Source: a virus (Duplodnaviria > Heunggongvirae > Uroviricota > Caudoviricetes). From it: a stretch of DNA of 13,994 nucleotides. The stretch lies in the IMG/VR virus record IMGVR_UViG_2585427783_000004. The stretch is one strand, 5' to 3'. Positions 1 through 13,994 of the stretch are shown here, piece by piece. Position 1 is the first letter of the stretch. Each line of letters begins with the position of its first letter. The position numbers were made by a program, and so were the translations under genes. Below the pieces are notes generated by a model, which was not told the DNA's origin, searched no databases, and saw only the letters and a list, made by a program, of their open reading frames with translations.

Positions 1-1614
1 TTATTTATTGGTGAGTACTACGTTCCATGGCAGGAGTTCATCAACTCGGTTGGAAGGCCATTCCGGCAGTACGCTCAGGATATGGCGCAGATACGCTTCC
101 GGATCGATACCGTTCAGACGGCAGGTGCCGATCAGCCCGTACAACAGTGCTCCACGCTCGCCGCCGTGATCGCTGCCAAAGAACATAAAGTTTTTCTTTC
201 CGAGACAGACTGCACGAAGCGCTCTTTCCGCAGCATTATTATCCGCCTCCGCCAGACCGTCATCACTGTAATAACAGAGGGCATCCCACTGATTCAGTAC
301 ATAGCTGAACGCTTCGCCCAGTCTGGATTTTTTCGACAGCGTACCATTCTTCTCCACCATCCATTCATGCAGCGACGTCAGTAACACTTTGCTTCGCTGC
401 TGCCTGACGGCAAGACGCTCTGACTCCGGTAATCCCCGTATTTCATCCTCGATGGCGTACAGTTCACTGATTCGCTTCAGTGCTTCTTCTGCCGTCGCAC
501 TTTTGCTGCTGATGTATACATCGTGGATTTTTCGCCGGGCATGGGCCCAGCACGCAACTTCTGTCAGTGCACCACCTTCACGTTCTGCACTGAACAACCT
601 GTCGTAACCTGTGAACGCATCCGCCTGCAGGATACCCCGGAAGGGGCGGAGGTGTTGCTCCGGGTGTTTCCCCTGCCGGTTCGGCGAGTACGCGAACCAG
701 ACCGCTGGAGGAGATGACGAACCCACATTGCGATCATCCCGGACATACGTCCAGATACGCCCTGTTTTCGCCTTTTTCTGACCCGGTGCCAGTACCTTTA
801 CCGGTGTGTCATCAGTGTGAATCTTGCGGGTGTTCATTACATAACGGTACAGGGCATCATTCACCGGTGTCATTAACTGGCAGCACGCGTCAACCCAGTT
901 GGAGAGTAAGGCCCGGCTCAGTTCGACACCCTGGCGGGCAAAGATTTCACTCTGACGATACAGTGGCAGATGTTCGCAGTATTTTCCCGTTAACACGCGG
1001 GCAAGTAATCCGGGGCCCGCGATACCACGCTCTATCGGGCGGGACGGCGCCGGTGCTTCAACAATACAGTCACATTTTGTACAGGCTTTTTTTACCCGTT
1101 CTGTGCGGATCACTTTCAGGGCACTGCTCACCAGTTCCAGCTGTTCAGCGCTGACTTCCCCCAGATAATCCAGCTTACCGCCACACTCCGGGCAACAGCT
1201 TTCTTCTGGCTCCAGGCGGTGTATTTCACGGGGAAGGTGTGCCGGTAACGGACGACGATGGCGCGACTGTCGCAACTGGCGGGGAACCTGAGGATCGTCT
1301 TCCCGCCCACTGTAACGATCGCTGTCCTGTTCACGTTGTTTCAGCAGAGCCTCAGCCAGTTCAACTTCACGACGCAGTTTTTCAGAACGGGTACCGAACA
1401 GCATCCGGCGCAGTTTTTCTATCTGAGCCCGCAGATGTTCTATTTCCCGTTCATCTTCTTCGATCTTTTCTTCGGCACGTGTCAGTGCAGAGCGCAGGAA
1501 GGCTTCCGTCTCTTCAACCAGACTCAGTTGCTGGTCTTTCTGACGGAGGGCTTCAGCCTGCTCAGAGAGCAACCTTTCCAGCTCTGCGATGCGAATGAGG
1601 TATTTCTGACTCAT
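1..1614 (-). CDS. IS66-family transposase (TnpC / Orf3), 537 aa
   Basis: ATG at 1614, TAA at 3..1. Translation shows an N-terminal coiled-coil/leucine-zipper region, a CxxC...CxxC zinc-binding motif (CCPECGGK...CTKCDC) and a C-terminal DDE-type region, as in IS66 TnpC proteins (recognised from family signatures, not a search). Confidence 0.9.
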   Translation of the reverse strand: MSQKYLIRIAELERLLSEQAEALRQKDQQLSLVEETEAFLRSALTRAEEKIEEDEREIEHLRAQIEKLRRMLFGTRSEKLRREVELAEALLKQREQDSDRYSGREDDPQVPRQLRQSRHRRPLPAHLPREIHRLEPEESCCPECGGKLDYLGEVSAEQLELVSSALKVIRTERVKKACTKCDCIVEAPAPSRPIERGIAGPGLLARVLTGKYCEHLPLYRQSEIFARQGVELSRALLSNWVDACCQLMTPVNDALYRYVMNTRKIHTDDTPVKVLAPGQKKAKTGRIWTYVRDDRNVGSSSPPAVWFAYSPNRQGKHPEQHLRPFRGILQADAFTGYDRLFSAEREGGALTEVACWAHARRKIHDVYISSKSATAEEALKRISELYAIEDEIRGLPESERLAVRQQRSKVLLTSLHEWMVEKNGTLSKKSRLGEAFSYVLNQWDALCYYSDDGLAEADNNAAERALRAVCLGKKNFMFFGSDHGGERGALLYGLIGTCRLNGIDPEAYLRHILSVLPEWPSNRVDELLPWNVVLTNK

Positions 1615-1644
1615 GACCGTTTTTATAATGCGGTCAGGAGTTTT

Positions 1645-1995
1645 TTACAACATTGTCAGTGAGTTACGGCTGGATGTTTTTGGCTGACGCCAGTCCAGCT
1701 TATCGAGGAGCATTGCCAGTTGCGAGCGGGTAATGGATACCTTGCCGTCACGTACCGCAGGCCAGATAAACTGGCCTTCCTCCAGGCGTTTGGTGAACAG
1801 GCACAGACCATCAGCATCAGCCCAAAGAATTTTGACGGTGTCACCCCGTCGGCCACGGAAGATAAACAGGTGACCGGAGAAGGGATTATCATTCAGCACA
1901 TGTTGTACCTGTTCTCCCAGTCCGTTGAAGGATTTACGCATATCGGTAACGCCGGCAACGAGCCAGATACGGGTACCTGATGGGAGTGAGATCAT
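1645..1995 (-). CDS. IS66 Orf2 (TnpB-like accessory protein), 116 aa
   Basis: ATG at 1995 overlaps the tnpA stop (ATGA), TAA at 1645-1647. The MISLPSGTRIWLVAGVTDMRKSFNGL... N-terminus is characteristic of IS66 Orf2. Confidence 0.85.
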   Translation of the reverse strand: MISLPSGTRIWLVAGVTDMRKSFNGLGEQVQHVLNDNPFSGHLFIFRGRRGDTVKILWADADGLCLFTKRLEEGQFIWPAVRDGKVSITRSQLAMLLDKLDWRQPKTSSRNSLTML

Positions 1996-2417
1996 CTTCC
2001 CCTCCCGGTCAGTTCACGGATCAACACTGTGAGCAGCTCTGGCGATGGATTTTCCAGCGTCATGTTACCGTGACGGAATTCCACCTTGCAGGAACTGGCA
2101 CTGACTCTGGTCTGAGTGGAAGTGGATAAAGACGGCGCAATGGCCGCCACAGGTTCTTTCTGCTCATCCGGCGTTATTTCTACAGGTAATAATTCAACGC
2201 CAGTGTCAGAAGAGGTCGTTACCGGAAGACGCCGCGAAACACGCCCTTCGTTCTGCCAGAGCCTGAGCCATTTGAAAATAACATTATCATTGACGCCATT
2301 TTCACGTGCAATCTGTGCAACACAAGCTCCAGGTTGTGATGCCAGTTCCACCATACGAAGTTTGAATTCATTCGAATAGTTTTTACGAGGTTCTTTTCGC
2401 CAGTCCTGTAATTCCAT
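1992..2417 (-). CDS. IS66 Orf1 (TnpA-like, helix-turn-helix), 141 aa
   Basis: ATG at 2417; first gene of the IS66 triad; N-terminal HTH-like segment (CVAQIARENGVNDNVIFKWLR). Confidence 0.8.
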   Translation of the reverse strand: MELQDWRKEPRKNYSNEFKLRMVELASQPGACVAQIARENGVNDNVIFKWLRLWQNEGRVSRRLPVTTSSDTGVELLPVEITPDEQKEPVAAIAPSLSTSTQTRVSASSCKVEFRHGNMTLENPSPELLTVLIRELTGRGR

Positions 2418-2502
2418 ACTTAGATGTCCGTCTATATCAGATGGGCGTCTAAGTTACCAATTCTCGTCTGATGGCTACATACGGCGGTCAGTTTACGCTT
2501 AC

Positions 2503-3348
2503 GACAGAGTTATAATTTTTGCCAAAATTGGTAATGTCAGAATTTAATCCCTTAATTAAGTCTGCTGACGGCTTACCTTTTTGCCCCAGCTCCATTAGCT
2601 TCAATCCCATCTCATCTGAGTGAATTTGTGCTCGCTGAGCCCTGTCTAGTTGAGCGTTCTGGATATTTGCCCATCCTCTCGCGTTCTCCATGTCAGCCTG
2701 ACGCATACTTTCATCCAGTCGCCCTTGCTCAAGTCGACGACCTTCCATTTGATCTTTGATATCGAAATACTTCTCATGACCGAGAGAAAACAGCGCCAGA
2801 TTACCTGCGAAATGCTGGAAGCCCTGCGGGTCATTAACCTGCATTTCAGCAATAGTTTCTGGAGGGATACCTAAACGACGCATCTCCTGCTCATTATCCA
2901 TCATGAACCTGCCAAATGCGCCCTGACCAAGCGATGAGGCTACCTGTGCTTTGAGCGCCAGATTGCCATAATCATCCCTTTGAGCATCATCGACATAACT
3001 CATCCCTTTACGGACTTCCTCAAACTCTTCTGGGAATGCTGTAATAAGATTACGCATCTGCTCCCTGTCACCGGACGCATAAGCATCTGCATAACCTTTC
3101 TGGAATGCCGCTTTACGTTCCTGCTGTTGCTGCTGCTTATAAATGTCAGCAACTCCAGCCAGACCACGAAGACCTGTCAGAGCAACGTTATTTGCACCTG
3201 AGCGAGCCAGTTCATTGTTTTCGCGGATCAGACCAAGCGTTGCGTTAATGTCGCTTGCCTTTGGCGCATTCTCATTTTGCGCACCGATGCCAGCCAGAAA
3301 ACCACCAGAATTAATACCCTGTTGCCACGTAGCCATAAATTTACCCAC
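2503..3348 (-). pseudogene. Q/E/R-rich, predicted alpha-helical protein of unknown function; 3' end interrupted by the IS66 insertion
   Basis: Open frame from 3348 (alternative ATG at 3334, MATWQQ...) runs without a stop into the IS. The last codons and stop (V-S-V-N-TGA, 2502->2488) are encoded by the IS terminal repeat itself, so the native C-terminus is missing from the window. Poly-Q tract (QQQQQ) and coiled-coil-like composition. Confidence 0.55.
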
Positions 3349-5251: not shown

Positions 5252-7603
5252 TTAAAAAACATCATAACCCCCCATACCGATCAGACGGGCAAACGCAGCC
5301 TGTAGAACTCCGACCTCTGGTAGTTCGTAGAACACGCCATTCCCTCGGTCTGGTCTTCCATGCTTCACCAGCCCCATTTGTGCAAGTGATTTACCCAGTA
5401 GTGATCTGGCAGCTGGTTCTTTAAGCTTTTCCCCACGCTCAAGCGACCACGCTACAAATCGACTAACCATATCCTTTGCAAACAAACGGACTTCGCCATT
5501 AAACGGAGGTTCATTGATTAGCTCGCCATAAAGAAACAATTCAACGCCAGACAGCCCCAGCAAGATTTCTTCACGTAAGGCATCGGTCTGTGGCGCTCGT
5601 TGAGGGTCAAAACCTGAGAGATCCACCCCTTTAAGATGCCAAAGCAACTTTGCGGCACCGCCATCATTAAGCCAACTGTACAGCCGATCAAAATACTCCC
5701 GGCTCTGTGCTTTTTCAGGAGATGGCTCAAGCACGAGATAGCGGCGCTCTCTTATCCCTGCCTGTAATACCTGTGTGCTGTTACTGGCAAATATCAACCG
5801 GGCAAAATTCGGCATTGGTTCAGCATCAATTCCCTTGCGCTCAAGGTTAAACGTCGGTTCGCTAATAATCGCTTTAAGTCTGTCAGCTTCAGACGGCTTG
5901 TGGATCGTCACTTCGTCAGCAAATACCAGTAGCTTGTTAGCAAGTATTGAATTGAAGCGCCCTGAAATATGTCCCGCCCCGTTAATGTGGGCGGCGTACT
6001 GCCCCAGTATTTGCAGCAGCGGTTTAACCGTTGTGCCTTTCCCTGTGCCCGGGACAGATTTCATCACGATTGCCACGGACGGTTTTTCATCAGGCTTTTG
6101 GATAATGTGCGCCATCCACTGGATAAGATATTGGTATGCCTCTTCATTACCGGCACAGACAACCTGCAACAGGTGATTAAGGTATACCGTGCAATCTCCT
6201 TCAATTGGTTCCAGTGCCAGCCCCTCATACAGATTAAAAACATCGTCAGGGCATTTGTCTGGTACTGGATAAAATCCTACGCCTCCTGGCTTGTAGTTCT
6301 TCCCACTCCATGACAGCCACGCCGATCCCGCCAGCTTTCTGGCGACTCTCGGTTTATGATGAAAATAATGCTGAAATTGTGATAAATCCTCGAAAACGTG
6401 CGATACACCGCCGGTTTGAGAAGGCTTTAGCGACACCCCCTTGTGTTTCCCGCCGATGGTGACATGCGTAAACGTCCGGTTGATTTCTTCGAGGACAGCA
6501 ATTTCATCATCGCTTAACACCTCGCCAGAACTGATCTCATTCAGCGCCCCGACTGACTGTTTGTGATTTTTCACCTGCGCCCCTTTCCCCCGTGGCTGGT
6601 ACATCGAATCTTTAAATGCTGCTGTGGCTGCCGCCAGCCCGTGTTGTTGGTGATAGTCGTTCCAGTCGGCTTTATAGTCAGTCGGTGGCAGAGACACCCA
6701 GCCAGCTACGGAAATAGCGGCCCTCTCTGCGGCATCTTTCCCCGTGTTGATCCCTCCACTTTCGGAGTTTCCTTGCTGGTGATCGTTATCTGCGGCAATG
6801 ATGATTTGTGCCTGTGGATATGTTCTGCGCATGACTTCCGCTACTGGCAACAGGTTGCCAGCGTCGATTGCTGCCACTGTCATTGCGTCAGGGCGAATTA
6901 AATGGCACGACAGGGCGGTAGCCACCCCCTCAGCAATTATGATGCTGTGAGGTCGTTTCTGTGCGTTTATGGCGTGATATGCCCCTCGCTTTGCTGAACC
7001 TGTCAGGAGTCTTTTTTCACCATGTGAGGTAATAGTCTGTGCTGCTGTGACTGCGCCGGATTTATCCACCAGCGCCAGCAACAGAGATCCATCGGGCAAC
7101 ACAGGGAATGTAAAATCACCTACCCCTTTCGCAACCAGATAATCAGATTTGCCGTTTACAGCCTTTCTGCGCATGTCATCAAACTGACGGGAAAACGTAT
7201 CCCGTCTTTGTTGTTCGTCCTTCTCTGCCCTTTTCAGGCGCTCCTGTTCGCGTCGCTGGCGCTCGGTTTCCAGTTGTTCCCGTTTCTGGCTGGTGGCTTC
7301 TGGTGTTTCCGTTGTCCGGTAATCAATACCCAGAACATCAGCGGCAAGAAGCGCCGCCTCTGTTGTGTCGCAGTTATTTACGCGTTTAATTAAATCCAGC
7401 CCATCACCAGCGCCGCACTGATTACAGATGAAGCTACCGCGCCCGTTGTCATCGAACCGGAATCGATCTTTGCCCCCACATGCAGGGCAGGGAGCATGAC
7501 GGCGCGGAGAGTCAGGGACATTTATGTTCAGGCAGTCCAGCACATGAGGCCAGTTGTTTTCAGACGCACTGATAACCTGACGGATAAGATCAATGTTTCG
7601 CAT
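5252..7603 (-). CDS. P4 alpha-like bifunctional primase/helicase (zinc-binding primase N-terminus, TOPRIM-like middle, P-loop NTPase C-terminus), 783 aa
   Basis: ATG at 7603. Zinc-ribbon motif CPACGGKDRFRFDD...CNQCG near the N-terminus, Walker A-like VPGTGKGTT, overall size close to P4 alpha (about 777 aa). Recognised from family signatures. Confidence 0.9.
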   Translation of the reverse strand: MRNIDLIRQVISASENNWPHVLDCLNINVPDSPRRHAPCPACGGKDRFRFDDNGRGSFICNQCGAGDGLDLIKRVNNCDTTEAALLAADVLGIDYRTTETPEATSQKREQLETERQRREQERLKRAEKDEQQRRDTFSRQFDDMRRKAVNGKSDYLVAKGVGDFTFPVLPDGSLLLALVDKSGAVTAAQTITSHGEKRLLTGSAKRGAYHAINAQKRPHSIIIAEGVATALSCHLIRPDAMTVAAIDAGNLLPVAEVMRRTYPQAQIIIAADNDHQQGNSESGGINTGKDAAERAAISVAGWVSLPPTDYKADWNDYHQQHGLAAATAAFKDSMYQPRGKGAQVKNHKQSVGALNEISSGEVLSDDEIAVLEEINRTFTHVTIGGKHKGVSLKPSQTGGVSHVFEDLSQFQHYFHHKPRVARKLAGSAWLSWSGKNYKPGGVGFYPVPDKCPDDVFNLYEGLALEPIEGDCTVYLNHLLQVVCAGNEEAYQYLIQWMAHIIQKPDEKPSVAIVMKSVPGTGKGTTVKPLLQILGQYAAHINGAGHISGRFNSILANKLLVFADEVTIHKPSEADRLKAIISEPTFNLERKGIDAEPMPNFARLIFASNSTQVLQAGIRERRYLVLEPSPEKAQSREYFDRLYSWLNDGGAAKLLWHLKGVDLSGFDPQRAPQTDALREEILLGLSGVELFLYGELINEPPFNGEVRLFAKDMVSRFVAWSLERGEKLKEPAARSLLGKSLAQMGLVKHGRPDRGNGVFYELPEVGVLQAAFARLIGMGGYDVF

Positions 7604-7615
7604 TCTGGCCCCCGT

Positions 7616-8218
7616 TTAGTGCGTCACTGGTGCTTCTGGGATGCCGTTTTCGTTTAGTTCGGCAATAAAGCTGTTGTGAAGATCGGCAAGCACTTCTCGC
7701 CCAAACGAAGTGAGTGTTCCCTGTTCGACATCGAACATGTTGCTGTAAAAAATGATGGCATTCTTTGTTCCGACATCAACACCATATTTCTCGATCATTG
7801 CGCCCTCAATGTTGTTTGCCATAGCGAGGCGCTCTGCTACTGGATACAGCGGCATGGCGACGATGCCATTGGAATAAACAGAAACCACGGAATGATTGCC
7901 ACTGTCATCAATAATGCTGACGGTGCCGTTTTCCTCTCTCATTTCCAGCATGAATACTGTTGCGATCAGCCATCTCCACATAATGACGTTATGCTGTGAT
8001 GTGTAATCGAAATATCCCTGGTTGCCGCCATCGGCAATAGCGAGATGTATTGACATACCTTCATCTGGTTTATCGTCATAATCCCCGGCATCCAGACGAT
8101 TTACGGCATCAATATATGAGACGGCCTCAACGCGTTCTGTCATGCCATCGTTGCTGCGGTACATGATGTTTACGCCGCCAGGCGTTGCTTCTGCATGGAA
8201 AGTTAAGAAATTATTCAT
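7616..8218 (-). CDS. Hypothetical protein, 200 aa, immediately upstream of and co-oriented with the primase
   Basis: ATG at 8218 (MNNFLTFHAE...) with GAGG 7 nt upstream; 8-bp overlap with the preceding small gene. The ORF-track start at 8323 is an upstream extension that would overlap the previous gene by more than 100 bp. Confidence 0.6.
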   Translation of the reverse strand: MNNFLTFHAEATPGGVNIMYRSNDGMTERVEAVSYIDAVNRLDAGDYDDKPDEGMSIHLAIADGGNQGYFDYTSQHNVIMWRWLIATVFMLEMREENGTVSIIDDSGNHSVVSVYSNGIVAMPLYPVAERLAMANNIEGAMIEKYGVDVGTKNAIIFYSNMFDVEQGTLTSFGREVLADLHNSFIAELNENGIPEAPVTH

Positions 8219-8432
8219 GTTTCGCCTCGCCTGAATGATTCTGTAACTCATATTTGCCCAACAATTCGTCCGCTTCCTGAATAGCTTCTGGTACGCCATT
8301 GAGCAGTGACATAACCGCGCCAATCATTAACTTGTCTCTGTTGCTTGGGCTGGCCCCTTCAAGCCAGAACCCTAAAACAGTCTGAACCTGTTCGATGCGA
8401 CATTGCGCTTCAATGAGCTGGATGTTGGTCAT
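8211..8432 (-). CDS. Hypothetical small protein, 73 aa
   Basis: ATG at 8432 with GGAGAG 6 nt upstream; ATGA overlap with the preceding gene stop (8429-8432). Confidence 0.55.
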   Translation of the reverse strand: MTNIQLIEAQCRIEQVQTVLGFWLEGASPSNRDKLMIGAVMSLLNGVPEAIQEADELLGKYELQNHSGEAKHE

Positions 8433-8692
8433 TTCGCACTCTCCACATCGATTAAACTGATATCTATCAGGGAGGTAACTTTTTGTAGCCAGCTATTGAT
8501 TACTGTCGCCTGTTCCCCTCCCACCGAGGGAATAATCTCATTCATCACATGAACCAGACCTGTGCGCGCTCTGGTAAGCCGTTCAGTCGCGCAATCTGCG
8601 GGAGTGAATGTGTCTGGATATGGCTCTTCGCGCCCCAGCAATGATTCAATTTCCAGCTCACACGGATGACGATAAATTAAGTTGATATTCAT
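8429..8692 (-). CDS. Hypothetical small protein, 87 aa
   Basis: ATG at 8692; ATGA overlap with the upstream gene stop; part of the chain of overlapping genes. Confidence 0.55.
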   Translation of the reverse strand: MNINLIYRHPCELEIESLLGREEPYPDTFTPADCATERLTRARTGLVHVMNEIIPSVGGEQATVINSWLQKVTSLIDISLIDVESAK

Positions 8693-8883
8693 TTTTCACC
8701 ACCAAGAATTACCAGCTCTGCACGGGCATCGTTAACCAAAGATGAGCACGCTTTAATCGCATCCACGACATCAGCAGCGTCCATTTCTTCAGCCGAAAGA
8801 CTGACAGCAACCAGGACAGCCGCTGCTTGCTCGATTAATTGAAGTGCGGACGTAAGGCGAGGGGTATTAATTGAGTTATTCAT
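8689..8883 (-). CDS. Hypothetical small protein, 64 aa
   Basis: ATG at 8883 preceded by GGGGG about 6 nt upstream; 8-bp overlap with the upstream gene. Confidence 0.5.
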   Translation of the reverse strand: MNNSINTPRLTSALQLIEQAAAVLVAVSLSAEEMDAADVVDAIKACSSLVNDARAELVILGGEK

Positions 8884-9094
8884 TGGTTGCCCCCGTTTTT
8901 ACTGGCATTTCGCCACCTTCCAGCAGGAAATGAACGTCACGAACGGCGAGATCCAATATCGCGAGTAACGCCTTCAGTCTTTCGTCTCGTGAGGGAGAGT
9001 TGCTCACCAGAATGTCGTTAATCACTTCTGTCAGTGTGATGATCTGGCTTGTGCGTTCGAGGGGATCCATATGCACATCGTAGGTTTTAATCAT
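8876..9094 (-). CDS. Hypothetical small protein, 72 aa
   Basis: ATG at 9094 preceded by GGAGGTG at ideal spacing; the start overlaps the stop of the upstream 64-aa gene (CATGATTAA). Confidence 0.55.
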   Translation of the reverse strand: MIKTYDVHMDPLERTSQIITLTEVINDILVSNSPSRDERLKALLAILDLAVRDVHFLLEGGEMPVKTGATNE

Positions 9095-9281
9095 GTGCCA
9101 CCTCCATGCGGATACGACCAGCAAAAAAGCAGACGTGATCGCGCACCAGAGAACGGCGAGCATCGCGTTCAGACTCGGCAGCAATATGATGAATTTTGGC
9201 GGTAATTGTCGGGCAATCGCGGCGAACTGCGGCGATAATCCAGATAAATTGCGTTTTTTGGGTAGGGGTAGTAGCCAGCAT
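9087..9281 (-). CDS. Hypothetical small protein, 64 aa; first gene of the early operon that ends with the primase
   Basis: ATG at 9281 preceded by a perfect AAGGAGG 7 nt upstream. All seven Arg codons are CGC/CGT and Leu is CTG, whereas the overlapping frame of the 355-aa ORF is full of CTA/TTA/ATA/AGG/CGA here. Confidence 0.55.
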   Translation of the reverse strand: MLATTPTQKTQFIWIIAAVRRDCPTITAKIHHIAAESERDARRSLVRDHVCFFAGRIRMEVAHD

Positions 9282-9477
9282 GTGGCAGCCTCCTTCAGAT
9301 AGCAGGTTACGCTACCACCGGAAACGCCAATTTCGCTGGTGGTAGCCCAGACAGGGTTGGCGTAACCGGCTCTGAAGGATACCGGCGCTTCCGAAGAAGC
9401 CCCCGCCTGAGCCACCATTGATTGACAAAGGCGCTGGATTATACACCAACGCCCAAAAAATGGGTGAGTCAGACCTA
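9282..9477 (-). promoter_or_regulatory. Promoter plus structured 5' leader of the early operon
   Basis: Minus-strand TATAAT at 9443->9438 (no good -35). Downstream leader has a UUCG-tetraloop hairpin (GCUUC-UUCG-GAAGC, 9400->9387) and a 9-bp stem hairpin (GCUACCACC ... GGUGGUAGC, 9346->9311) before the SD at about 9290. Confidence 0.35.
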
Positions 9478-9513
9478 CGACATAAAAAAAGACGCTTGGC
9501 GCGTCATATGTCG
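9478..9513 (-). terminator. Candidate rho-independent terminator at the end of the alpA-side transcription unit
   Basis: Minus strand: stem GACGC / GCGUC (5 bp, 5-nt loop) followed by U7 (9490->9484), nested inside a larger inverted repeat CGACAT ... ATGTCG (9478-9483 / 9508-9513). Confidence 0.4.
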
Positions 9514-9943
9514 CCTTCAGAATTTTTAGGACGCCAATCCCGGCACCCGTTTTATGAGGTGCCTTATAACCATAAACCGTGTTGCCGCATAACGGCAAGC
9601 TCTTTTTTATGGACTCCGAAAACTCACTATTGGAAGAACCAGAAGCACAGTACATCGCGCTCATTTCGTTAACGTCACGCGCGTGGACGAAGGTTTTTGT
9701 GGAGTCACTACACGAGCAGAGAAAGCCATCTACGACCAGAAATTCTCTGGCATAGCCGCTGACCTTCTCAACGCTAACACCATCGACCGTAATTTCTGAC
9801 ATAGTTAAGGCATCCGCTCCTACCACCAGCAAATGATAAACTTTGCTTGTATCTGCTGTATTAATGTCTGACTTTGCTGTCATATTGCTGGATTTTGGCG
9901 ACATACCAGCCAGTGAAAATATCTTCTTCTGGGCGGTTAGCAT
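9514..9943 (-). other. Open frame with a plausible start (GGAGG + ATG at 9943) but no in-frame stop before the terminator and promoter; possible decayed gene or chance open frame
   Basis: SD GGAGG 7 nt upstream of the ATG at 9943 and protein-like composition for about 120 codons, but the frame runs through a terminator, a promoter, leader hairpins and a better-supported gene in another frame without any stop. Confidence 0.25.
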
Positions 9944-10957: not shown

Positions 10958-11389
10958 TTAGGCGGCGTTAAACGCGTCCGGGTAGAGTTTCAGAATGTCG
11001 GCAATTTCCTGCTGAGAAAGTCCGTTGTGATCATTTATGTTCGCAAGATGGTTAACATGAGTGATCACTTTCAGAACATCACCACGGCAGGAGAAACGGT
11101 AGCGAAGGTGTGTTCCGATACCATCAGGATTCTTTTCGTCGATACGCTCCAGAGTGATTCCAAGCTGGCGTTCTAACTCTGTTGCATAGTTACGACCAGA
11201 AGACAGACGGCAGTAGCGAAGAATGTCATTTTCTGTCCATCCCTCTATACCAGTACGCAGCATATAGACTCGGGCACGATGCTTTTTCGGTGTGCGCTTT
11301 GGTGCTTGAAGGGATTTTGTAAGGGGCGTAATATCAGATACGCGAATATCTGAATTAGCCGCCTGTAATGGGCGGTTTTTCTTTTCCAT
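10958..11389 (-). CDS. Hypothetical protein, 143 aa, basic N-terminus; function unknown
   Basis: ATG at 11389 overlaps the alpA stop (ATGA); no stop for 143 codons; conventional codon usage. Confidence 0.6.
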   Translation of the reverse strand: MEKKNRPLQAANSDIRVSDITPLTKSLQAPKRTPKKHRARVYMLRTGIEGWTENDILRYCRLSSGRNYATELERQLGITLERIDEKNPDGIGTHLRYRFSCRGDVLKVITHVNHLANINDHNGLSQQEIADILKLYPDAFNAA

Positions 11390-11607
11390 CAGGCCACCTT
11401 CCCGCGGCGTTCTGCCAGCCAGTTATTAATTTCCACCGCATCAAACGCAGTCACGTTATCTGTTAGCTTCACTGGGCGTGGAAGAGTGCCATTTTTAACC
11501 CATCTATCAATAGTAGGCAGTGAAACACCTAGCAATTCCGGCATGCGAAAGCGACGGATGTATCCAGTTGTTGGGATAGCTGATGATGCTGGCTTGTGTA
11601 CTGTCAT
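11389..11607 (-). CDS. alpA: AlpA-family (excisionase-like, MerR-type HTH) transcriptional regulator, 72 aa
   Basis: ATG at 11607. Small protein with the motif MPELLGVSLPTIDRWVKNGTLPRPVKL...AFDAVEINNWL typical of AlpA/Xis-type regulators found next to P4-type integrases. Confidence 0.75.
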   Translation of the reverse strand: MTVHKPASSAIPTTGYIRRFRMPELLGVSLPTIDRWVKNGTLPRPVKLTDNVTAFDAVEINNWLAERRGKVA

Positions 11608-12078: not shown

Positions 12079-12729
12079 TTAGTCGAGATCGTGGACAGCT
12101 AATAAAGCCCGTGAGATTTTTTCTAGGAATGTGGCTTTTGCTATTCCTTTATGGGATATCCCTTCATCCTTGATTAAGGTTTCTATGTCACGGTATATAG
12201 CTGTGCGATTAGGTTTCCCATTTTGGATGTAGGAAGATGAGCCTGATTTTTTTATCAGCAGATGTACTATCAACCCCATCATTTTCATTGTCCCGTTTTC
12301 CTCATCCTGCTTTCTATGCTGCCCACGTCCGCTGCGGTTGGTTTCTTTGATGTAGTTTACTAACTGGAGTCCTCCAAGGTTTCGGGCTTTTTCTTCCCAG
12401 CCCTTGGTGCCACGCAAATCATCAATCGCTTCTGATATTTTCTGAACAATTATTTCTGGTGTATTTGTGTCAATAAATGGGTAAGAAGCTAAGAAAATAT
12501 CAAGGGCATGGCAAGGCTCATCTTTACTAGTTTTTTCACCTCTGTACACCTTGATAGCTCTGGCAAGATGAGTTCTGACAAAATCGACATATTCGAAATT
12601 TTCCTCAGGCACATCGCTAATGCGCATAGATGGGTTTAGGCCAGCCAAGGCCACAGCCATTTCATGAGGGGTAATCGATACAGATGAACAAAGCCGTTCG
12701 ATTGGCGATTTTCTCAAGATGTTGTTCAC
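12079..12729 (-). CDS. Hypothetical protein, 216 aa, translationally coupled to the integrase; AT-rich cargo gene of unknown function
   Basis: GTG start at 12729 overlapping the integrase stop (GTGA) with a strong GGAGG 5 nt upstream; TAA at 12079-12081. Visibly lower GC than neighbouring genes. No family recognised. Confidence 0.6.
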   Translation of the reverse strand: MNNILRKSPIERLCSSVSITPHEMAVALAGLNPSMRISDVPEENFEYVDFVRTHLARAIKVYRGEKTSKDEPCHALDIFLASYPFIDTNTPEIIVQKISEAIDDLRGTKGWEEKARNLGGLQLVNYIKETNRSGRGQHRKQDEENGTMKMMGLIVHLLIKKSGSSSYIQNGKPNRTAIYRDIETLIKDEGISHKGIAKATFLEKISRALLAVHDLD

Positions 12730-13994
12730 ATTTGCCTCCGGGCTTTATCGAATGGCGTTACGTTGTAGTCTTTCCCGCTTTCCAGTGCCACCAGCAGATC
12801 TGCCCACTGTGCCAGTGCTGCTTTACGCTCATCAAAATACTGATGACGGTTATAAATCCCCTCTACGCCCTTAATGCGATGATTGAGGCATCGTTCCGCC
12901 ACGACAGGATCAACACCCAATGCTGCTAAATGAGTACGTGCGGTGCGTCGGAAGTCGTGAATCGTGAAATTAGGCACATCCGGCATTTCGGCGCGAACCT
13001 TAGCCAGTGCTACGGGTAAAGTGCTTTCCTGAATATGTGGGATCATTCTGTTTTGCATCTTCCTGGCCGGAAGCACCCATGCGCTATTACATGAAAAGGT
13101 GTGTAGCTCTCTCAACCATTCAACGGCTGGGGAAGGTAGAGGTATATCAATAGGGTCTCCGTTTTTGCTGCGTTCTTCCGGCAAATGCCATACCGCACCA
13201 TCTAAATCAAACTCTTCCCATCGTGCGGCGCATAACTCCATCTTACGAACGCATAGTGCCAGCAATAGCTTAAATGTCAGTTCGTTCTGGCGGCTGAATC
13301 CTTTTGCGGTGCGCATAGCCTCGAATAGCCTGATAAGCTCATCGCGAGTTAGCCAACGGTCGCGGGAAACCTCTTTACCACCAGCATCAGATACTTCAAA
13401 CGCTGAACAAGGGTTTATCTCCAGAGCGTGGCGTTTTATCCCATAGTCAAAGATACGGCGTGTCCAGCGTAATACATCTGTTGCTATCGTTGGTGCTCCT
13501 CGGTCAACGATACCTTTTAACATGTCGTCAATGTGACGTGGCTTAACGTCCTCTACCTTCATATGCCCAATGCAGGGGTTAATATCCTTATCAATTCTCC
13601 GGCGAAGGATATCGGGATGTTTCCATCTCGGAAGTATCTGTCGCTCGAAGTATTCGGCGGCCAGATCTGAAACGCGCATGGCGTTTTTCTCAGCCTCCAT
13701 TTTTGCCAGTGCTTCAGCTTTTCGTTCCTGTTTTTCTGCTGCTACGTCATAGCCAAGAGCAACTCTGGCTGACAGCTCTTTTGCTGTTTCTCTGGCTTTT
13801 GATAGTGACAGTTCGGAGTAAGAGCCGATAACCATAGCCCGCTGTTTTCCTGCGAGCTTATATCGGAATCGCCAGAACGGGACTGTGTAGTTTTTGGGGT
13901 AGCAAATATAAAGGCCGTTGCCGTCTGCCTTGCCATCAAATCTGTCTCCCGCCTTTATCCATGCGCGGATCTGCATATCTGTGAGTTTTGGCAT
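12726..13994 (-). CDS. int: Tyrosine recombinase, P4-type phage integrase, 422 aa
   Basis: ATG at 13994 (window edge). N-terminal arm-binding region with RFRYKLAGKQRAMVIGSY...LSKARETAKEL, and C-terminal catalytic region with HDFRRTARTHLAALGV and a conserved Tyr (YNRHQY). Confidence 0.9.
   Translation of the reverse strand: MPKLTDMQIRAWIKAGDRFDGKADGNGLYICYPKNYTVPFWRFRYKLAGKQRAMVIGSYSELSLSKARETAKELSARVALGYDVAAEKQERKAEALAKMEAEKNAMRVSDLAAEYFERQILPRWKHPDILRRRIDKDINPCIGHMKVEDVKPRHIDDMLKGIVDRGAPTIATDVLRWTRRIFDYGIKRHALEINPCSAFEVSDAGGKEVSRDRWLTRDELIRLFEAMRTAKGFSRQNELTFKLLLALCVRKMELCAARWEEFDLDGAVWHLPEERSKNGDPIDIPLPSPAVEWLRELHTFSCNSAWVLPARKMQNRMIPHIQESTLPVALAKVRAEMPDVPNFTIHDFRRTARTHLAALGVDPVVAERCLNHRIKGVEGIYNRHQYFDERKAALAQWADLLVALESGKDYNVTPFDKARRQM

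What the first reader, a model, noticed from the sequence alone, without database searches (positions are those of the whole stretch)
7616..9281. Chain of six tightly overlapping small genes upstream of the primase, none recognisable
Six ORFs of 64-200 aa are linked by ATGA or 8-bp overlaps and each has a ribosome-binding site, forming one polycistronic early operon that ends in the primase. In P4-type satellites the genes ahead of the primase include helper derepression and host-interference factors. None of these six is recognisable to me, so they may represent undescribed helper-manipulation functions.
Basis: partly seen in the sequence, partly recalled or inferred. Interest (0 to 1): 0.45.

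Follow-up and report, generated by a model that had tools for sequence, protein, structure and literature searches.

The report
Satellite early operon under antisense-RNA control
The six overlapping small genes are real and form the early operon of a published type of E. coli phage satellite (EcCIMP1-like island): an antisense RNA controls it, two genes have known P4 relatives (Kil/Icd, Cnr), four remain unknown.

Summary
Six minus-strand ORFs (9281 down to 7616) are linked by 4- or 8-nt overlaps, each with a Shine-Dalgarno, and run into the primase gene. No dinucleotide shuffle out of 500 gives more than three linked ORFs.

"None recognisable" is wrong for two genes.
- Gene 1 (9087-9281) is an Icd-like protein, a homologue of P4 Kil.
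- Gene 6 (7616-8218) has a C-terminal domain remotely homologous to P4 Cnr/DUF5375, the copy-number regulator that precedes the P4 primase gene (hhalign 94%, E 1e-7).

Just upstream lie isrK/seqA-like and C4/CI-like RNA genes. The C4 loop is complementary to the icd ribosome-binding site. Loop and target co-vary through 11 sequence types in 16 elements.

The chain is therefore the counterpart of the P4 left operon (kil ... cnr-alpha). It sits in an EcCIMP1-like PICI, present in about 9% of complete E. coli genomes. This is not a P4-type satellite: no sid, delta, psu or epsilon was found.

The four middle genes (64-87 aa, acidic) stay unexplained. Two are conserved across Enterobacteriaceae islands. 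The other two were seen only in this lineage, among the 17 islands compared.

Verdict: ordinary in kind. The open functional question is modest.

The parts
9485..9562 (-). isrK-family leader RNA. It is the counterpart of the P4 seqA leader. It carries the upstream C4 target sites (9537..9531 and 9521..9514) and its own intrinsic terminator (9505..9491 plus a T-run).
   Evidence: Rfam RF01394, 60.5 bits against a gathering score of 50. P4 has the same element at the same relative place. Terminator. Target sites. The equivalence with seqA is stated in PMC10111431.
9335..9422 (-). C4/CI-type antisense (immunity) RNA. Its exposed loop is UCCUUCAGA (nt 44-52) and its single-stranded stretch is GGUUACGCCAA (nt 56-66).
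   Evidence: Rfam RF01695, 79.9 bits against a gathering score of 45, full length. Fold of -46.4 kcal/mol and target search. Loop and target co-vary in 16 elements.
9291..9330 (-). Downstream C4 target sites. b2 is at 9330..9324 and 9312..9305. a2 is at 9299..9291. a2 overlaps the icd Shine-Dalgarno AGGAGG (9294..9289).
   Evidence: Exact complementarity of 7-9 nt. The a2 site changes in step with the C4 loop in every island compared.
9087..9281 (-). g6: Icd-like / P4 Kil-like small basic protein (64 aa, pI 9.5). It is the first gene of the chain.
   Evidence: NCBIfam NF033153, E 3.9e-20, 71.6 bits against a cutoff of 25. 42% identity to P4 Kil. PGAP names it an Icd-like protein. pI.
8876..9943 (-). 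355-aa 'ash family' ORF, the Eta-like ORF. It starts 7 nt before the stop of the DUF4222 gene and reads through isrK and C4. It crosses icd in the +1 frame and ends as g5.
   Evidence: The Pfam Phage_ASH hit covers aa 124-232, which is window 9248-9574. Annotated as an intact 355-aa protein in several genomes. Its cluster at 90% identity has 1393 members. Frame analysis.
8876..9094 (-). g5: 72-aa acidic ORF of unknown function. It is also the C-terminal 72 residues of the 355-aa ORF.
   Evidence: GGAGG, a 6-nt spacer, then ATG; 8-nt overlap with the icd stop. Found only in the closely related islands. Substitution pattern uninformative. Not annotated in several RefSeq records.
8689..8883 (-). 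g4: 64-aa acidic ORF of unknown function, seen only in this lineage among the islands compared.
   Evidence: Variation is biased to the third codon position, 2/0/5. No Pfam, NCBIfam or PHROG family above noise.
8429..8692 (-). g3: 87-aa acidic protein of unknown function, conserved in related islands of several genera. It is misnamed 'nicotinic acetylcholine receptor subunit beta' in RefSeq.
   Evidence: Homologues at 50-55% identity in 8 of 14 more distant islands, plus three weaker relatives. Names. No family hit.
8211..8432 (-). g2: 73-aa acidic protein of unknown function, conserved and sometimes duplicated in related islands.
   Evidence: About 40% identity in 6 of the 14 more distant islands, with a second copy in L004 and L017. 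phrog_20558, E 2.9e-9, function unknown. Third-position bias 0/1/5.
7616..8218 (-). g1: 200-aa very acidic protein (net charge -19). It has an N-terminal domain of about 73 aa and a C-terminal domain remotely homologous to P4 Cnr (DUF5375). In all 17 related islands fetched with g1 as the query it lies just upstream of the primase, or with one or two small ORFs between.
5252..7603 (-). Primase-helicase (783 aa). The N-terminal zinc-ribbon and TOPRIM part is P4-alpha-like. The C-terminal part is of the DUF5906 type.
   Evidence: BLASTP against P4 alpha: 33% identity over aa 7-337, E 9e-41, with no similarity in the C-terminal half.

Best explanation
The six genes are the promoter-proximal part of the early, replication-side operon of an EcCIMP1-like phage-inducible chromosomal island. 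This operon is the structural counterpart of the left operon of satellite P4.

Shown:
- Directly upstream lie an isrK/seqA-like leader RNA and a C4/CI-like antisense RNA.
- The two exposed elements of the C4 RNA are complementary to sites in the leader and to a site that covers the Shine-Dalgarno of the first gene, icd.
- That pairing is maintained by co-variation across islands.
- The first gene is an Icd/Kil homologue.
- The last gene is a remote Cnr homologue sitting in front of the primase.
- All junctions are 4- or 8-nt overlaps.

Inferred by analogy with P1 immI and P4 immunity:
- In the resting island, short transcripts from a constitutive internal promoter supply C4 RNA.
- C4 RNA masks the icd ribosome-binding site and provokes early termination.
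- Because every downstream gene is translationally coupled to the one before, icd, the four small acidic proteins, the Cnr-like protein and the primase stay off together.
- On helper induction, AlpA-dependent transcription from upstream carries ribosomes along the long Eta-like ORF through the RNA region. This overrides termination, and the whole chain and the primase are expressed.
- Icd would then block host cell division.
- g1 would bind and tune the primase-initiator, setting replication or copy number.
- g5, g4, g3 and g2 are most likely small protein-binding modulators of host or helper functions. Their targets are unknown.
For: Gene chain:
- Anatomy and RBSs.
- Not chance.
- No internal terminator.

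RNAs and their targets:
- RNA genes. The same pair is in P4 and in 14 of 15 related islands.
- Complementarity to the icd SD and to leader sites.
- Eleven different loop sequences occur, and the a2 target in front of icd is exactly complementary in all 16 elements. The b' element and its downstream target co-vary likewise. An upstream a1 match of at least 7 nt was found in 10 of 16 elements.

Proteins:
- Icd.
- Cnr homology. The score rises from 38 to 47 when the Cnr side becomes a profile. 200 shuffles reach at most 17.8. Both families end in an invariant C-terminal His.
- P4-like elements have the order AlpA, Eta/Icd, one small gene, DUF5375, primase.
- cnr lies between epsilon and alpha in 90% of P4-like elements and controls plasmid copy number (PMC8628076).

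Element and its regulation:
- The backbone is conserved in 17 related islands from about 12 genera.
- The same genes are in EcCIMP1, which Kapi1 induces and transfers and which needs alpA (PMC11773190).
- P4 eta/kil logic, and the C4 and isrK models as detectors of CI and seqA: PMC10111431.
- A 12.1-kb circular record of the same element suggests an episomal replicating form.
Against: - No expression data were examined. The promoters are not mapped: the consensus scan found no convincing sigma-70 site at the expected place, and the TTGCCG-N18-TATGGT I read upstream of isrK is weak.
- The Cnr link is remote: 17% identity, and the Pfam DUF5375 HMM does not hit g1 itself. It hits only 2 of 51 family members, at E 0.16.
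- g1 relatives also sit in early-left operons of true temperate phages with no primase next to them.
- The C-terminal half of this primase is unlike that of P4 alpha.
- g5 shows no clear sign of purifying selection. It may be only the tail of the 355-aa ORF.
- Nothing indicates what g2-g5 do. Pfam, NCBIfam and PADLOC give nothing above noise, PHROGs gives only unknown-function families for g2, and tblastn and profile-profile comparison give no informative hit.
Confidence: 0.72

Rival explanations
1. The four middle genes (g5, g4, g3, g2), and perhaps the N-terminal domain of g1, are accessory effectors aimed at the helper phage or the host. Possible roles are helper interference, superinfection exclusion or anti-defence. 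They would not be parts of replication or immunity control. They would simply ride in the early operon, as epsilon does in P4.
For: - All are small and acidic, pI 4.2-4.8, which is typical of protein-binding inhibitors. That generalisation is my own knowledge.
- The slot between icd and g1 is a cassette zone, with different small genes in different islands.
- EcCIMP1, which carries the same genes, adds superinfection immunity against Kapi1. No known defence system was found in it (PMC11773190). PADLOC also finds nothing here.
- g1 relatives in temperate phages lie among non-essential early-left genes.
Against: - No similarity to P4 epsilon (PF25738) or to any known anti-defence or interference family.
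- No tblastn match to g2-g5 in 50,697 phage records.
- g3 and g2 are conserved across genera next to the replication genes, which fits a core function as well as a cargo function.
- No experiment assigns the EcCIMP1 immunity phenotype to these genes.
Confidence: 0.35
2. g5, and possibly g4, are not independent functional proteins. g5 is just the 3' end of the 355-aa Eta-like ORF. The short ORFs matter mainly as a translated relay that keeps ribosomes on the mRNA, preventing Rho-dependent polarity and handing ribosomes on to g3, g2, g1 and the primase.
For: - g5 is in frame with, and terminal to, the 355-aa ORF.
- It is left unannotated in several RefSeq genomes, or is subsumed in an 'ash family protein'.
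- g5 and g4 occur only in the closest relatives of this island.
- The g5 substitution pattern, 4/4/6 by codon position, shows no clear coding constraint.
- In P4, translation of eta is what prevents termination (PMC10111431).
Against: - g5 has its own strong GGAGG at 6 nt from an ATG that overlaps the icd stop.
- g4 shows third-position-biased variation, 2/0/5.
- Both ORFs keep their exact length in hundreds of genomes.
- The numbers of substitutions are too small to decide either way.
Confidence: 0.15
3. g1 is not a Cnr-type regulator of the primase. It is a general early phage and satellite protein of another function. Its adjacency to the primase reflects operon order only, and the similarity to Cnr is a shared helical scaffold.
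For: - g1 homologues at 31-38% identity lie in phiP27, phi467, Stx phages and Klebsiella prophages, between the repressor and int/xis, with no primase nearby.
- In some islands one or two extra ORFs lie between g1 and the primase.
- g1 accompanies primases annotated in three different ways: DUF5906, P4 family, and TOPRIM plus DUF927.
- The Pfam DUF5375 model does not reach g1.
- The confident model has no fold match that would suggest a function.
Against: - Profile-profile probability is 94%, over 94 columns spanning nearly all of Cnr. The score is about 14 SD above shuffles and improves with a richer Cnr profile.
- Both families share an invariant C-terminal His.
- Both have the same position relative to icd and the primase, in P4-like elements and in these islands.
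Confidence: 0.3

Closest known systems
Left (early) operon of satellite phage P4: PLE, seqA leader, CI RNA, eta/kil, epsilon, orf151, cnr, alpha
   Same: - The same two RNA families lie in the same order ahead of a Kil/Icd homologue.
- A long Eta-like ORF spans the RNA genes.
- The small genes are tightly overlapping.
- A Cnr-type gene comes last, before a primase with a P4-alpha-like N-terminal half.
- An AlpA-family gene lies upstream.
   Different: - There is no epsilon (PF25738) or orf151 homologue. Four unrelated small acidic genes take their place.
- The Cnr-like protein carries an extra N-terminal domain of about 73 aa and a beta-hairpin insertion.
- icd is out of frame with the Eta-like ORF, which instead fuses to g5.
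- No sid, delta or psu was found.
- The C-terminal half of the primase is of the DUF5906 type.
EcCIMP1, a PICI of E. coli MP1 mobilised by the P22-like phage Kapi1 (Pick, Stadel and Raivio, ISME J 2025, PMC11773190)
   Same: - The same gene chain is present. g2 is the same RefSeq protein as in strain FORC_031, whose DNA is 100% identical to window 7400-9600. The chain (window 7618-9295) is 95% identical in DNA between MP1 and the window.
- The backbone is the same: int, alpA, a 143-aa gene, AntA/B, DUF4222, ash/icd, the small genes, then the primase.
- P22-type ejection-protein genes lie downstream in both.
   Different: - The integrase and attachment site differ: tRNA-Thr in MP1, next to yicC here.
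- EcCIMP1 has two extra ORFs between g1 and a TOPRIM/DUF927 primase.
- The window copy carries an IS66-family insertion.
- The paper leaves these small genes as hypothetical and does not mention the Icd-like gene (0 occurrences of 'icd').
Phage P1/P7 immI region: c4 antisense RNA, icd, ant
   Same: - The C4 covariance model matches at full length.
- There are two exposed elements, with targets both upstream and downstream.
- The downstream target covers the icd RBS.
- Expression of the genes after icd is coupled to icd translation. For P1 this is my own knowledge; here it is inferred from the overlaps.
- Specificity types differ between relatives.
   Different: What follows icd here is not an antirepressor but small unknown genes and a primase. 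The AntA/AntB-family gene lies upstream of the RNA region.
Gifsy-1 isrK-orf45-anrP-isrJ locus of Salmonella (PMC4825925)
   Same: An isrK-family RNA with its own terminator lies ahead of a short ORF whose translation is controlled by RNA pairing.
   Different: There, short IsrK activates translation of the read-through transcript and leads to the antiterminator AntQ. Here the context is a satellite immunity and replication operon. No AnrP or AntQ relative was looked for or seen.

Membership tests
Icd-like host cell division inhibitor (NCBIfam NF033153; P1 Icd, P4 Kil) | Sequence match to the family model above its curated cutoff | tested here: met
   g6 scores 71.6 bits against a cutoff of 25, E 3.9e-20, covering profile positions 1-48 of 48. 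It is 42% identical to P4 Kil over 57 aa.
Icd-like host cell division inhibitor (NCBIfam NF033153; P1 Icd, P4 Kil) | Gene lies directly downstream of a C4/CI-type RNA whose target covers its ribosome-binding site | tested here: met
   C4 is at 9422..9335. The a2 target at 9299..9291 overlaps the SD at 9294..9289. This is conserved with co-variation in 16 elements.
Icd-like host cell division inhibitor (NCBIfam NF033153; P1 Icd, P4 Kil) | Expression blocks cell division (filamentation or killing) | not testable with these tools
   This needs expression in E. coli.
C4/CI antisense-RNA immunity system (P1 immI, P4 immunity; Rfam RF01695, with RF01394 and RF03163 as targets) | Covariance-model match above the gathering score for the antisense RNA and for the upstream target or leader element | tested here: met
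   C4 scores 79.9 bits (gathering 45). isrK scores 60.5 bits (gathering 50).
C4/CI antisense-RNA immunity system (P1 immI, P4 immunity; Rfam RF01695, with RF01394 and RF03163 as targets) | The exposed elements of the RNA are complementary to sites upstream and downstream on the same transcript, and the pairing is kept when the sequences differ | tested here: met
   Eleven loop variants occur, and the downstream a2 target in front of icd is exactly complementary in every one. An upstream a1 match of at least 7 nt was found in 10 of 16 elements.
C4/CI antisense-RNA immunity system (P1 immI, P4 immunity; Rfam RF01695, with RF01394 and RF03163 as targets) | The RNA is processed from the leader transcript and causes premature termination or translational block in vivo | not testable with these tools
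   This needs Northern or RNA-seq data and reporter assays.
P4 Cnr / DUF5375 (PF17345) | Match to the Pfam family model | tested here: not met
   g1 has no Pfam hit at E<=1. Only 2 of 51 family members touch DUF5375, at E 0.16. P4 Cnr itself scores 210.9 bits.
P4 Cnr / DUF5375 (PF17345) | Remote homology by profile-profile comparison over most of the domain | tested here: met
   hhalign of A5 against A8 gives 94.3%, E 1.1e-7, over 94 columns, aligning g1 74-186 with Cnr 7-101. The real score is 38.3 against a shuffle maximum of 17.8. Both families end in an invariant C-terminal His.
P4 Cnr / DUF5375 (PF17345) | Gene lies immediately upstream of the primase-initiator gene in the icd-led operon | tested here: met
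   In the window there is a 12-nt gap to the primase. The order is the same in 17 related islands, with one or two extra ORFs in some, and in P4-like elements.
P4 Cnr / DUF5375 (PF17345) | Binds the initiator and limits copy number | not testable with these tools
   This needs interaction and copy-number assays.
[quoted passage not shown] | Presence of the capsid-size and late-control genes sid, delta and psu | tested here: not met
   No Psu, Ogr/Delta or Sid-like family appears among the window ORFs scanned. True P4-like loci do show them next to alpA. Caveat: the window ends in an IS66 element, so the far end of the island is not seen.
[quoted passage not shown] | Integrase, AlpA, a PF10554 hit and an alpha-type primase | tested here: met
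   Integrase at 12726-13994. AlpA at 11389-11607. PF10554 on the 355-aa ORF. Primase N-terminal half 33% identical to alpha.
P4 epsilon, helper derepression protein (PF25738) | Match to the family model | tested here: not met
   None of the six proteins hits PF25738 at E<=1. P4 epsilon scores 170 bits. BLASTP and hhalign are also negative.
Gram-negative PICI, EcCIMP1-like | Unidirectional order int, alpA, Bro/antirepressor zone, replication (primase), helper-derived late genes, at satellite size | tested here: met
   A circular copy of the same element type measures 12.1 kb. The zone scheme is from PMC10111431.
Gram-negative PICI, EcCIMP1-like | Near-identity of the core genes to the experimentally characterised EcCIMP1 | tested here: met
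   The MP1 locus carries the same icd, g4, g3, g2 and g1 genes. The chain is 95% identical in DNA.
Gram-negative PICI, EcCIMP1-like | Excision, replication and transfer only with an induced helper phage | not testable with these tools
   This was shown for EcCIMP1 with Kapi1 (PMC11773190), not for this copy. This copy also carries an IS66 insertion in its late region.

The most novel reading that the evidence does not exclude
In this lineage the Eta-like ORF has been re-framed by a 1-nt change between the icd Shine-Dalgarno and its ATG. It now reads across icd in the +1 frame and fuses to g5.

The same DNA would therefore encode icd and, out of frame, part of a 355-aa 'override' protein. Translation of that protein from the induced upstream promoter would defeat the RNA immunity.

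The +1 frame is stop-free in all nine islands where icd is uncoupled. These represent two lineages with different downstream genes. The frame carries stops in 13 of 15 elements where icd is in frame with Eta (a stop at codon 15 in 12 of them).

Together with this, the four acidic ORFans and the N-terminal domain of g1 would be undescribed helper- or host-directed factors. One possibility is that they cause the unexplained Kapi1 superinfection immunity of EcCIMP1.
Probability: 0.25. Interest if true: 0.55.

Novelty: new member of a known kind. Interest (0 to 1): 0.3.

Why it matters
The chain sits in about one in eleven complete E. coli genomes, and in relatives in many Enterobacteriaceae. Four of its six products still have no known function, and one of them is misnamed in RefSeq.

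Placing the chain under a P4/P1-type antisense-RNA switch, with a Kil/Icd gene first and a Cnr-like gene last, turns an unannotated block into a testable model of how this satellite family keeps replication and a toxic gene silent until its helper is induced.

It also narrows the search for the unexplained EcCIMP1 phenotype, superinfection immunity against its helper, to a handful of small genes.

It is not a new kind of system. Every regulatory element has a described counterpart in P4, P1 or Gifsy-1.

Tried and rejected
1. Pfam, NCBIfam, PHROGs and PADLOC on all six proteins. This gave only Icd for g6, unknown-function PHROGs for g1 and g2, and sub-threshold noise for g4 (TY-Chap1 E 0.005, CARF E 0.008).

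3. Sequence search of the g1 profiles against the PDB gave noise only.

4. The idea that g2, g4 and g5 are paralogous helical hairpins was rejected. BLASTP and hhalign show no relation among the small families. They also show no relation to P4 epsilon, orf151 or cnr, or to the 75-aa family of P4-like elements.

5. Two of the three large protein searches used concatenated queries (g5+g4 and g3+g2). This was a mistake. The tool appears to drop hits much shorter than the query, so it returned mostly fused or mis-assembled ORFs. These results say little about distant homologues. The statement that g4 and g5 are lineage-restricted therefore rests on the 17 islands compared and on tblastn against phages and plasmids.

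6. A search for diverse Cnr sequences in viral contigs returned only near-identical copies. Five useful ones came from the plasmid collection.

7. dN/dS-type counts on nine close relatives give too few substitutions to decide for icd, g5 and g3.

8. The consensus promoter scan found no convincing promoter for the leader.
Full report
**1. What is there**

All genes of the region are on the minus strand. Read in the direction of transcription, the window carries:
- an integrase (13994-12726) and a 216-aa gene;
- an AlpA-type regulator (11607-11389) and a 143-aa gene;
- an AntA/AntB-family antirepressor (10945-10112) and a DUF4222 gene;
- a long 'ash family' ORF that starts at 9943;
- the six ORFs of the finding;
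- a 783-aa primase-helicase (7603-5252);
- further co-oriented genes, including a P22-type injection-translocase gene;
- an IS66-family element at the window's low end.

- icd-like g6, 9281-9087
- g5, 9094-8876
- g4, 8883-8689
- g3, 8692-8429
- g2, 8432-8211
- g1, 8218-7616

The junctions are 8, 8, 4, 4 and 8 nt overlaps, and each start has a purine-rich Shine-Dalgarno. In 500 dinucleotide-preserving shuffles of the region, no chain longer than three linked ORFs arose. No terminator-like hairpin on the coding strand lies inside the chain. The block is at least 95% identical in about 485 of 5426 complete E. coli genomes.

**2. The leader: two RNA genes that control the first gene**

Rfam finds a C4 antisense RNA at 9422-9335 (79.9 bits) and an isrK RNA at 9562-9485 (60.5 bits). 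Both are on the coding strand and immediately upstream of g6. The isrK element ends in the only coding-strand intrinsic terminator in the neighbourhood, at 9505-9491 plus a T-run.

Phage P4 has the same two elements in the same order in front of kil. A published analysis states that these two Rfam models detect the P4 immunity RNA CI and its target seqA, and that they occur in Gram-negative PICIs (PMC10111431).

The predicted C4 fold exposes a loop, UCCUUCAGA, and a single-stranded stretch, GGUUACGCCAA. Exact complements lie at two places:
- in the isrK element, at 9537-9531 and 9521-9514;
- just before g6, at 9330-9324, 9312-9305 and 9299-9291.

The last of these overlaps the g6 Shine-Dalgarno.

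I extracted the same positions from 16 elements: this window, P4 and 14 related islands. The loop occurs in 11 different sequence versions. In every element the stretch abutting the icd Shine-Dalgarno is its exact complement. The second element and its downstream target co-vary as well. An upstream a1 match of at least 7 nt turned up in 10 of the 16.

This is strong comparative evidence that the RNA pairs with the translation start of the first gene. It also shows that the islands come in many immunity specificities. The window and its closest relatives L006 and L007 carry different loops ahead of the same six genes.

**3. The proteins**

*g6.* It matches the NCBIfam Icd-like model well above cutoff. 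It is 42% identical to the 65-residue P4 Kil. RefSeq already names it an Icd-like protein.

*g1.* It belongs to a family of about 470 proteins, 122 clusters at 50% identity, all called hypothetical, mostly from Enterobacteriaceae. It matches phrog_1515, of unknown function.

A faint DUF5375 signal in two family members led me to compare the g1 family profile with P4 Cnr (ORF106):
- hhalign gives 88.7% probability and a score of 38.3 over 93 columns.
- 200 shuffles of Cnr have a mean of 10.9, an SD of 2.0 and a maximum of 17.8.
- With five Cnr homologues from P4-like elements as a profile, the values rise to 94.3%, E 1.1e-7 and a score of 46.8.
- The alignment covers Cnr residues 7-101 and g1 residues 74-186.
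- Both families end in an invariant C-terminal histidine.

In P4 and P4-like elements cnr is the gene just before the primase gene. [quoted passage not shown] From my own knowledge, Cnr acts through the alpha protein (Ziegelin et al. 1997, J Bacteriol).

I therefore read g1 as a Cnr-related protein with an extra N-terminal domain.

There are caveats:
- The Pfam model itself does not hit g1.
- g1 relatives in phiP27, phi467, Stx phages and Klebsiella prophages lie in early-left operons away from any primase.
- Only the N-terminal half of this primase resembles P4 alpha.

*g5, g4, g3 and g2.* They have no informative match in Pfam, NCBIfam, PHROGs or PADLOC. They have no tblastn match in 50,697 phage records. 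Profile comparison finds no relation to each other, to P4 epsilon, orf151 or cnr, or to the 75-aa family common in P4-like elements.

- All four are acidic, with pI 4.2-4.8. Icd is basic.
- g3 is conserved at 50-55% identity in 8 of the 14 more distant islands, with three weaker relatives. g2 is conserved at about 40% identity in 6 of those islands and is sometimes duplicated.
- g4 and g5 occur only in the closest relatives. Other islands have different small genes in that slot.
- Variation among nine close copies is biased to the third codon position for g1, g2 and g4. It is uninformative for g5, g3 and icd.
- RefSeq calls g3 'nicotinic acetylcholine receptor subunit beta', which is a propagated error.

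**4. What kind of element**

The same gene chain is present in EcCIMP1 of E. coli MP1. EcCIMP1 is a PICI shown to excise, circularise and be transferred only with the P22-like helper Kapi1. It needs its alpA, and it adds superinfection immunity against Kapi1 by an unknown mechanism. Its small genes were left as hypothetical (PMC11773190).

Seventeen related islands from Escherichia, Klebsiella, Enterobacter, Kluyvera, Kosakonia, Cedecea, Lonsdalea and other genera share one backbone: int, variable gene, AlpA, 143-aa gene, AntA/B, (DUF4222), Eta/isrK/C4/Icd, small-gene cassette, g1, (one or two extra ORFs in some), primase, SSB.

No sid, delta or psu was found, and none of the six proteins matches the epsilon family. 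This is therefore not a P4-type satellite, although its early operon is built like that of P4. A 12,152-bp circular 'plasmid' record is an excised copy of the same island type.

**5. How it most likely works**

Shown:
- the coupled gene chain;
- the RNA genes;
- the co-varying complementarity to the icd start;
- the identities of the first and last genes;
- the conserved order.

Inferred from P1 immI, from P4 immunity and from the account of eta and kil in PMC10111431:
- In the resting state, short leader transcripts yield C4 RNA.
- C4 RNA masks the icd ribosome-binding site and causes early termination.
- Coupling then keeps the whole chain and the primase silent.
- After helper induction, AlpA-driven transcription from upstream brings ribosomes along the Eta-like ORF through the RNA region.
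- This overrides termination, and Icd, the small proteins, the Cnr-like protein and the primase are made.

The promoters are not mapped. I see only a weak TTGCCG-N18-TATGGT ahead of isrK, and a TATAAT at 9445-9440 between the isrK terminator and C4. The consensus scan reports neither.

**6. Verdict**

The finding is real, but it is a member of a known kind. It is the P4-style, antisense-RNA-gated early operon of a published PICI family.

- Two of the six genes are recognisable. One needs only a routine search. The other needs a profile-profile comparison.
- Four genes remain without function and are reasonable candidates for host- or helper-directed factors. Nothing here shows that.
- Interest is modest.

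Noticed in passing
window 8876-9943 (-); compare L016:3282-4250 and P4 L002:8168-8812 (-): The 355-aa 'ash family' ORF reads through isrK and C4, then crosses icd in the +1 frame and ends as g5.

In P4 and in 13 of 17 related islands, Icd/Kil is instead the in-frame C-terminus of this Eta-like ORF. The difference is 1 nt between the SD and the ATG (P4 GCCATCATG, window GCCACATG).

The +1 frame of icd is stop-free in all 9 uncoupled loci. These represent two lineages, and in L016 the ORF fuses to a different downstream gene. The same frame carries stops in 13 of 15 coupled elements, at codon 15 in 12 of them.

This suggests selection for translation right through icd.
   Followed up: partly
window 9248-9574 (-); P4 L002:8168-8812 (-) and 7888-8175 (-): Pfam PF10554 (Phage_ASH) matches the ORF that overlies the isrK and C4 RNA genes (P4 eta, the old 'cI/ash' ORF). 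It does not match the helper-derepression protein epsilon, which is PF25738.

Among close relatives this stretch shows 13 synonymous against 54 non-synonymous codon differences. That suggests no protein-level constraint, although part of this variation reflects exchange of whole C4 immunity alleles.

PMC8628076 uses PF10554 as the marker for 'epsilon (Ash)'. That marker in fact detects the immunity-RNA region.
   Followed up: partly
window 9335-9422 (-) against L003-L016 and P4: There are 11 distinct C4 loop and target specificities among 16 elements. The window (UCCUUCAGA) and its nearest relatives L006 and L007 (UCCUUGUAC) differ, although the six downstream genes are 96-98% identical. Immunity modules seem to be exchanged independently of the operon they control.
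   Followed up: yes
L028 (NZ_CP148430.1, 12,152 bp, circular): A record deposited as an E. coli plasmid is a complete circular copy of this island type, from int through the six-gene chain, primase and PerC. The island may therefore persist or be captured as an episome, as P4 can.
   Followed up: no
window 1-2417 (-) and 2488-3348 (-): An IS66-family element (TnpC-like 537 aa, TnpB-like 116 aa and an HTH transposase ORF) sits at the low end of the window. It truncates a P22-type injection-translocase gene (ejection protein). That gene is 448 aa in strain FORC_031, which is otherwise identical. This copy of the island may be defective for transfer.
   Followed up: partly
window 8429-8692 (-): g3 and its homologues are widely annotated in RefSeq and UniRef as 'nicotinic acetylcholine receptor subunit beta'. 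This is an evident propagated misannotation of an 87-aa bacterial protein.
   Followed up: no
L025 (phiP27 L06), L026 (phi467), L027 (Klebsiella phage P18-100): Homologues of g1 at 31-38% identity occur in true temperate phages. They lie among unnamed early genes between the repressor and int/xis and are not adjacent to replication genes. Some carry the spurious name '2-polyprenylphenol hydrolase'.
   Followed up: partly
window 9440-9445 (-): A perfect TATAAT lies between the isrK terminator and the C4 RNA, without a good -35 hexamer. It might be a second promoter that makes C4 RNA independently of the leader.
   Followed up: no
L004, L005, L007, L008, L011, L013, L017 (between int and alpA): The Rfam 'int-alpA RNA' motif (RF02996) is present between the integrase and alpA in seven related islands. 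It was not found in the window at gathering threshold.
   Followed up: no
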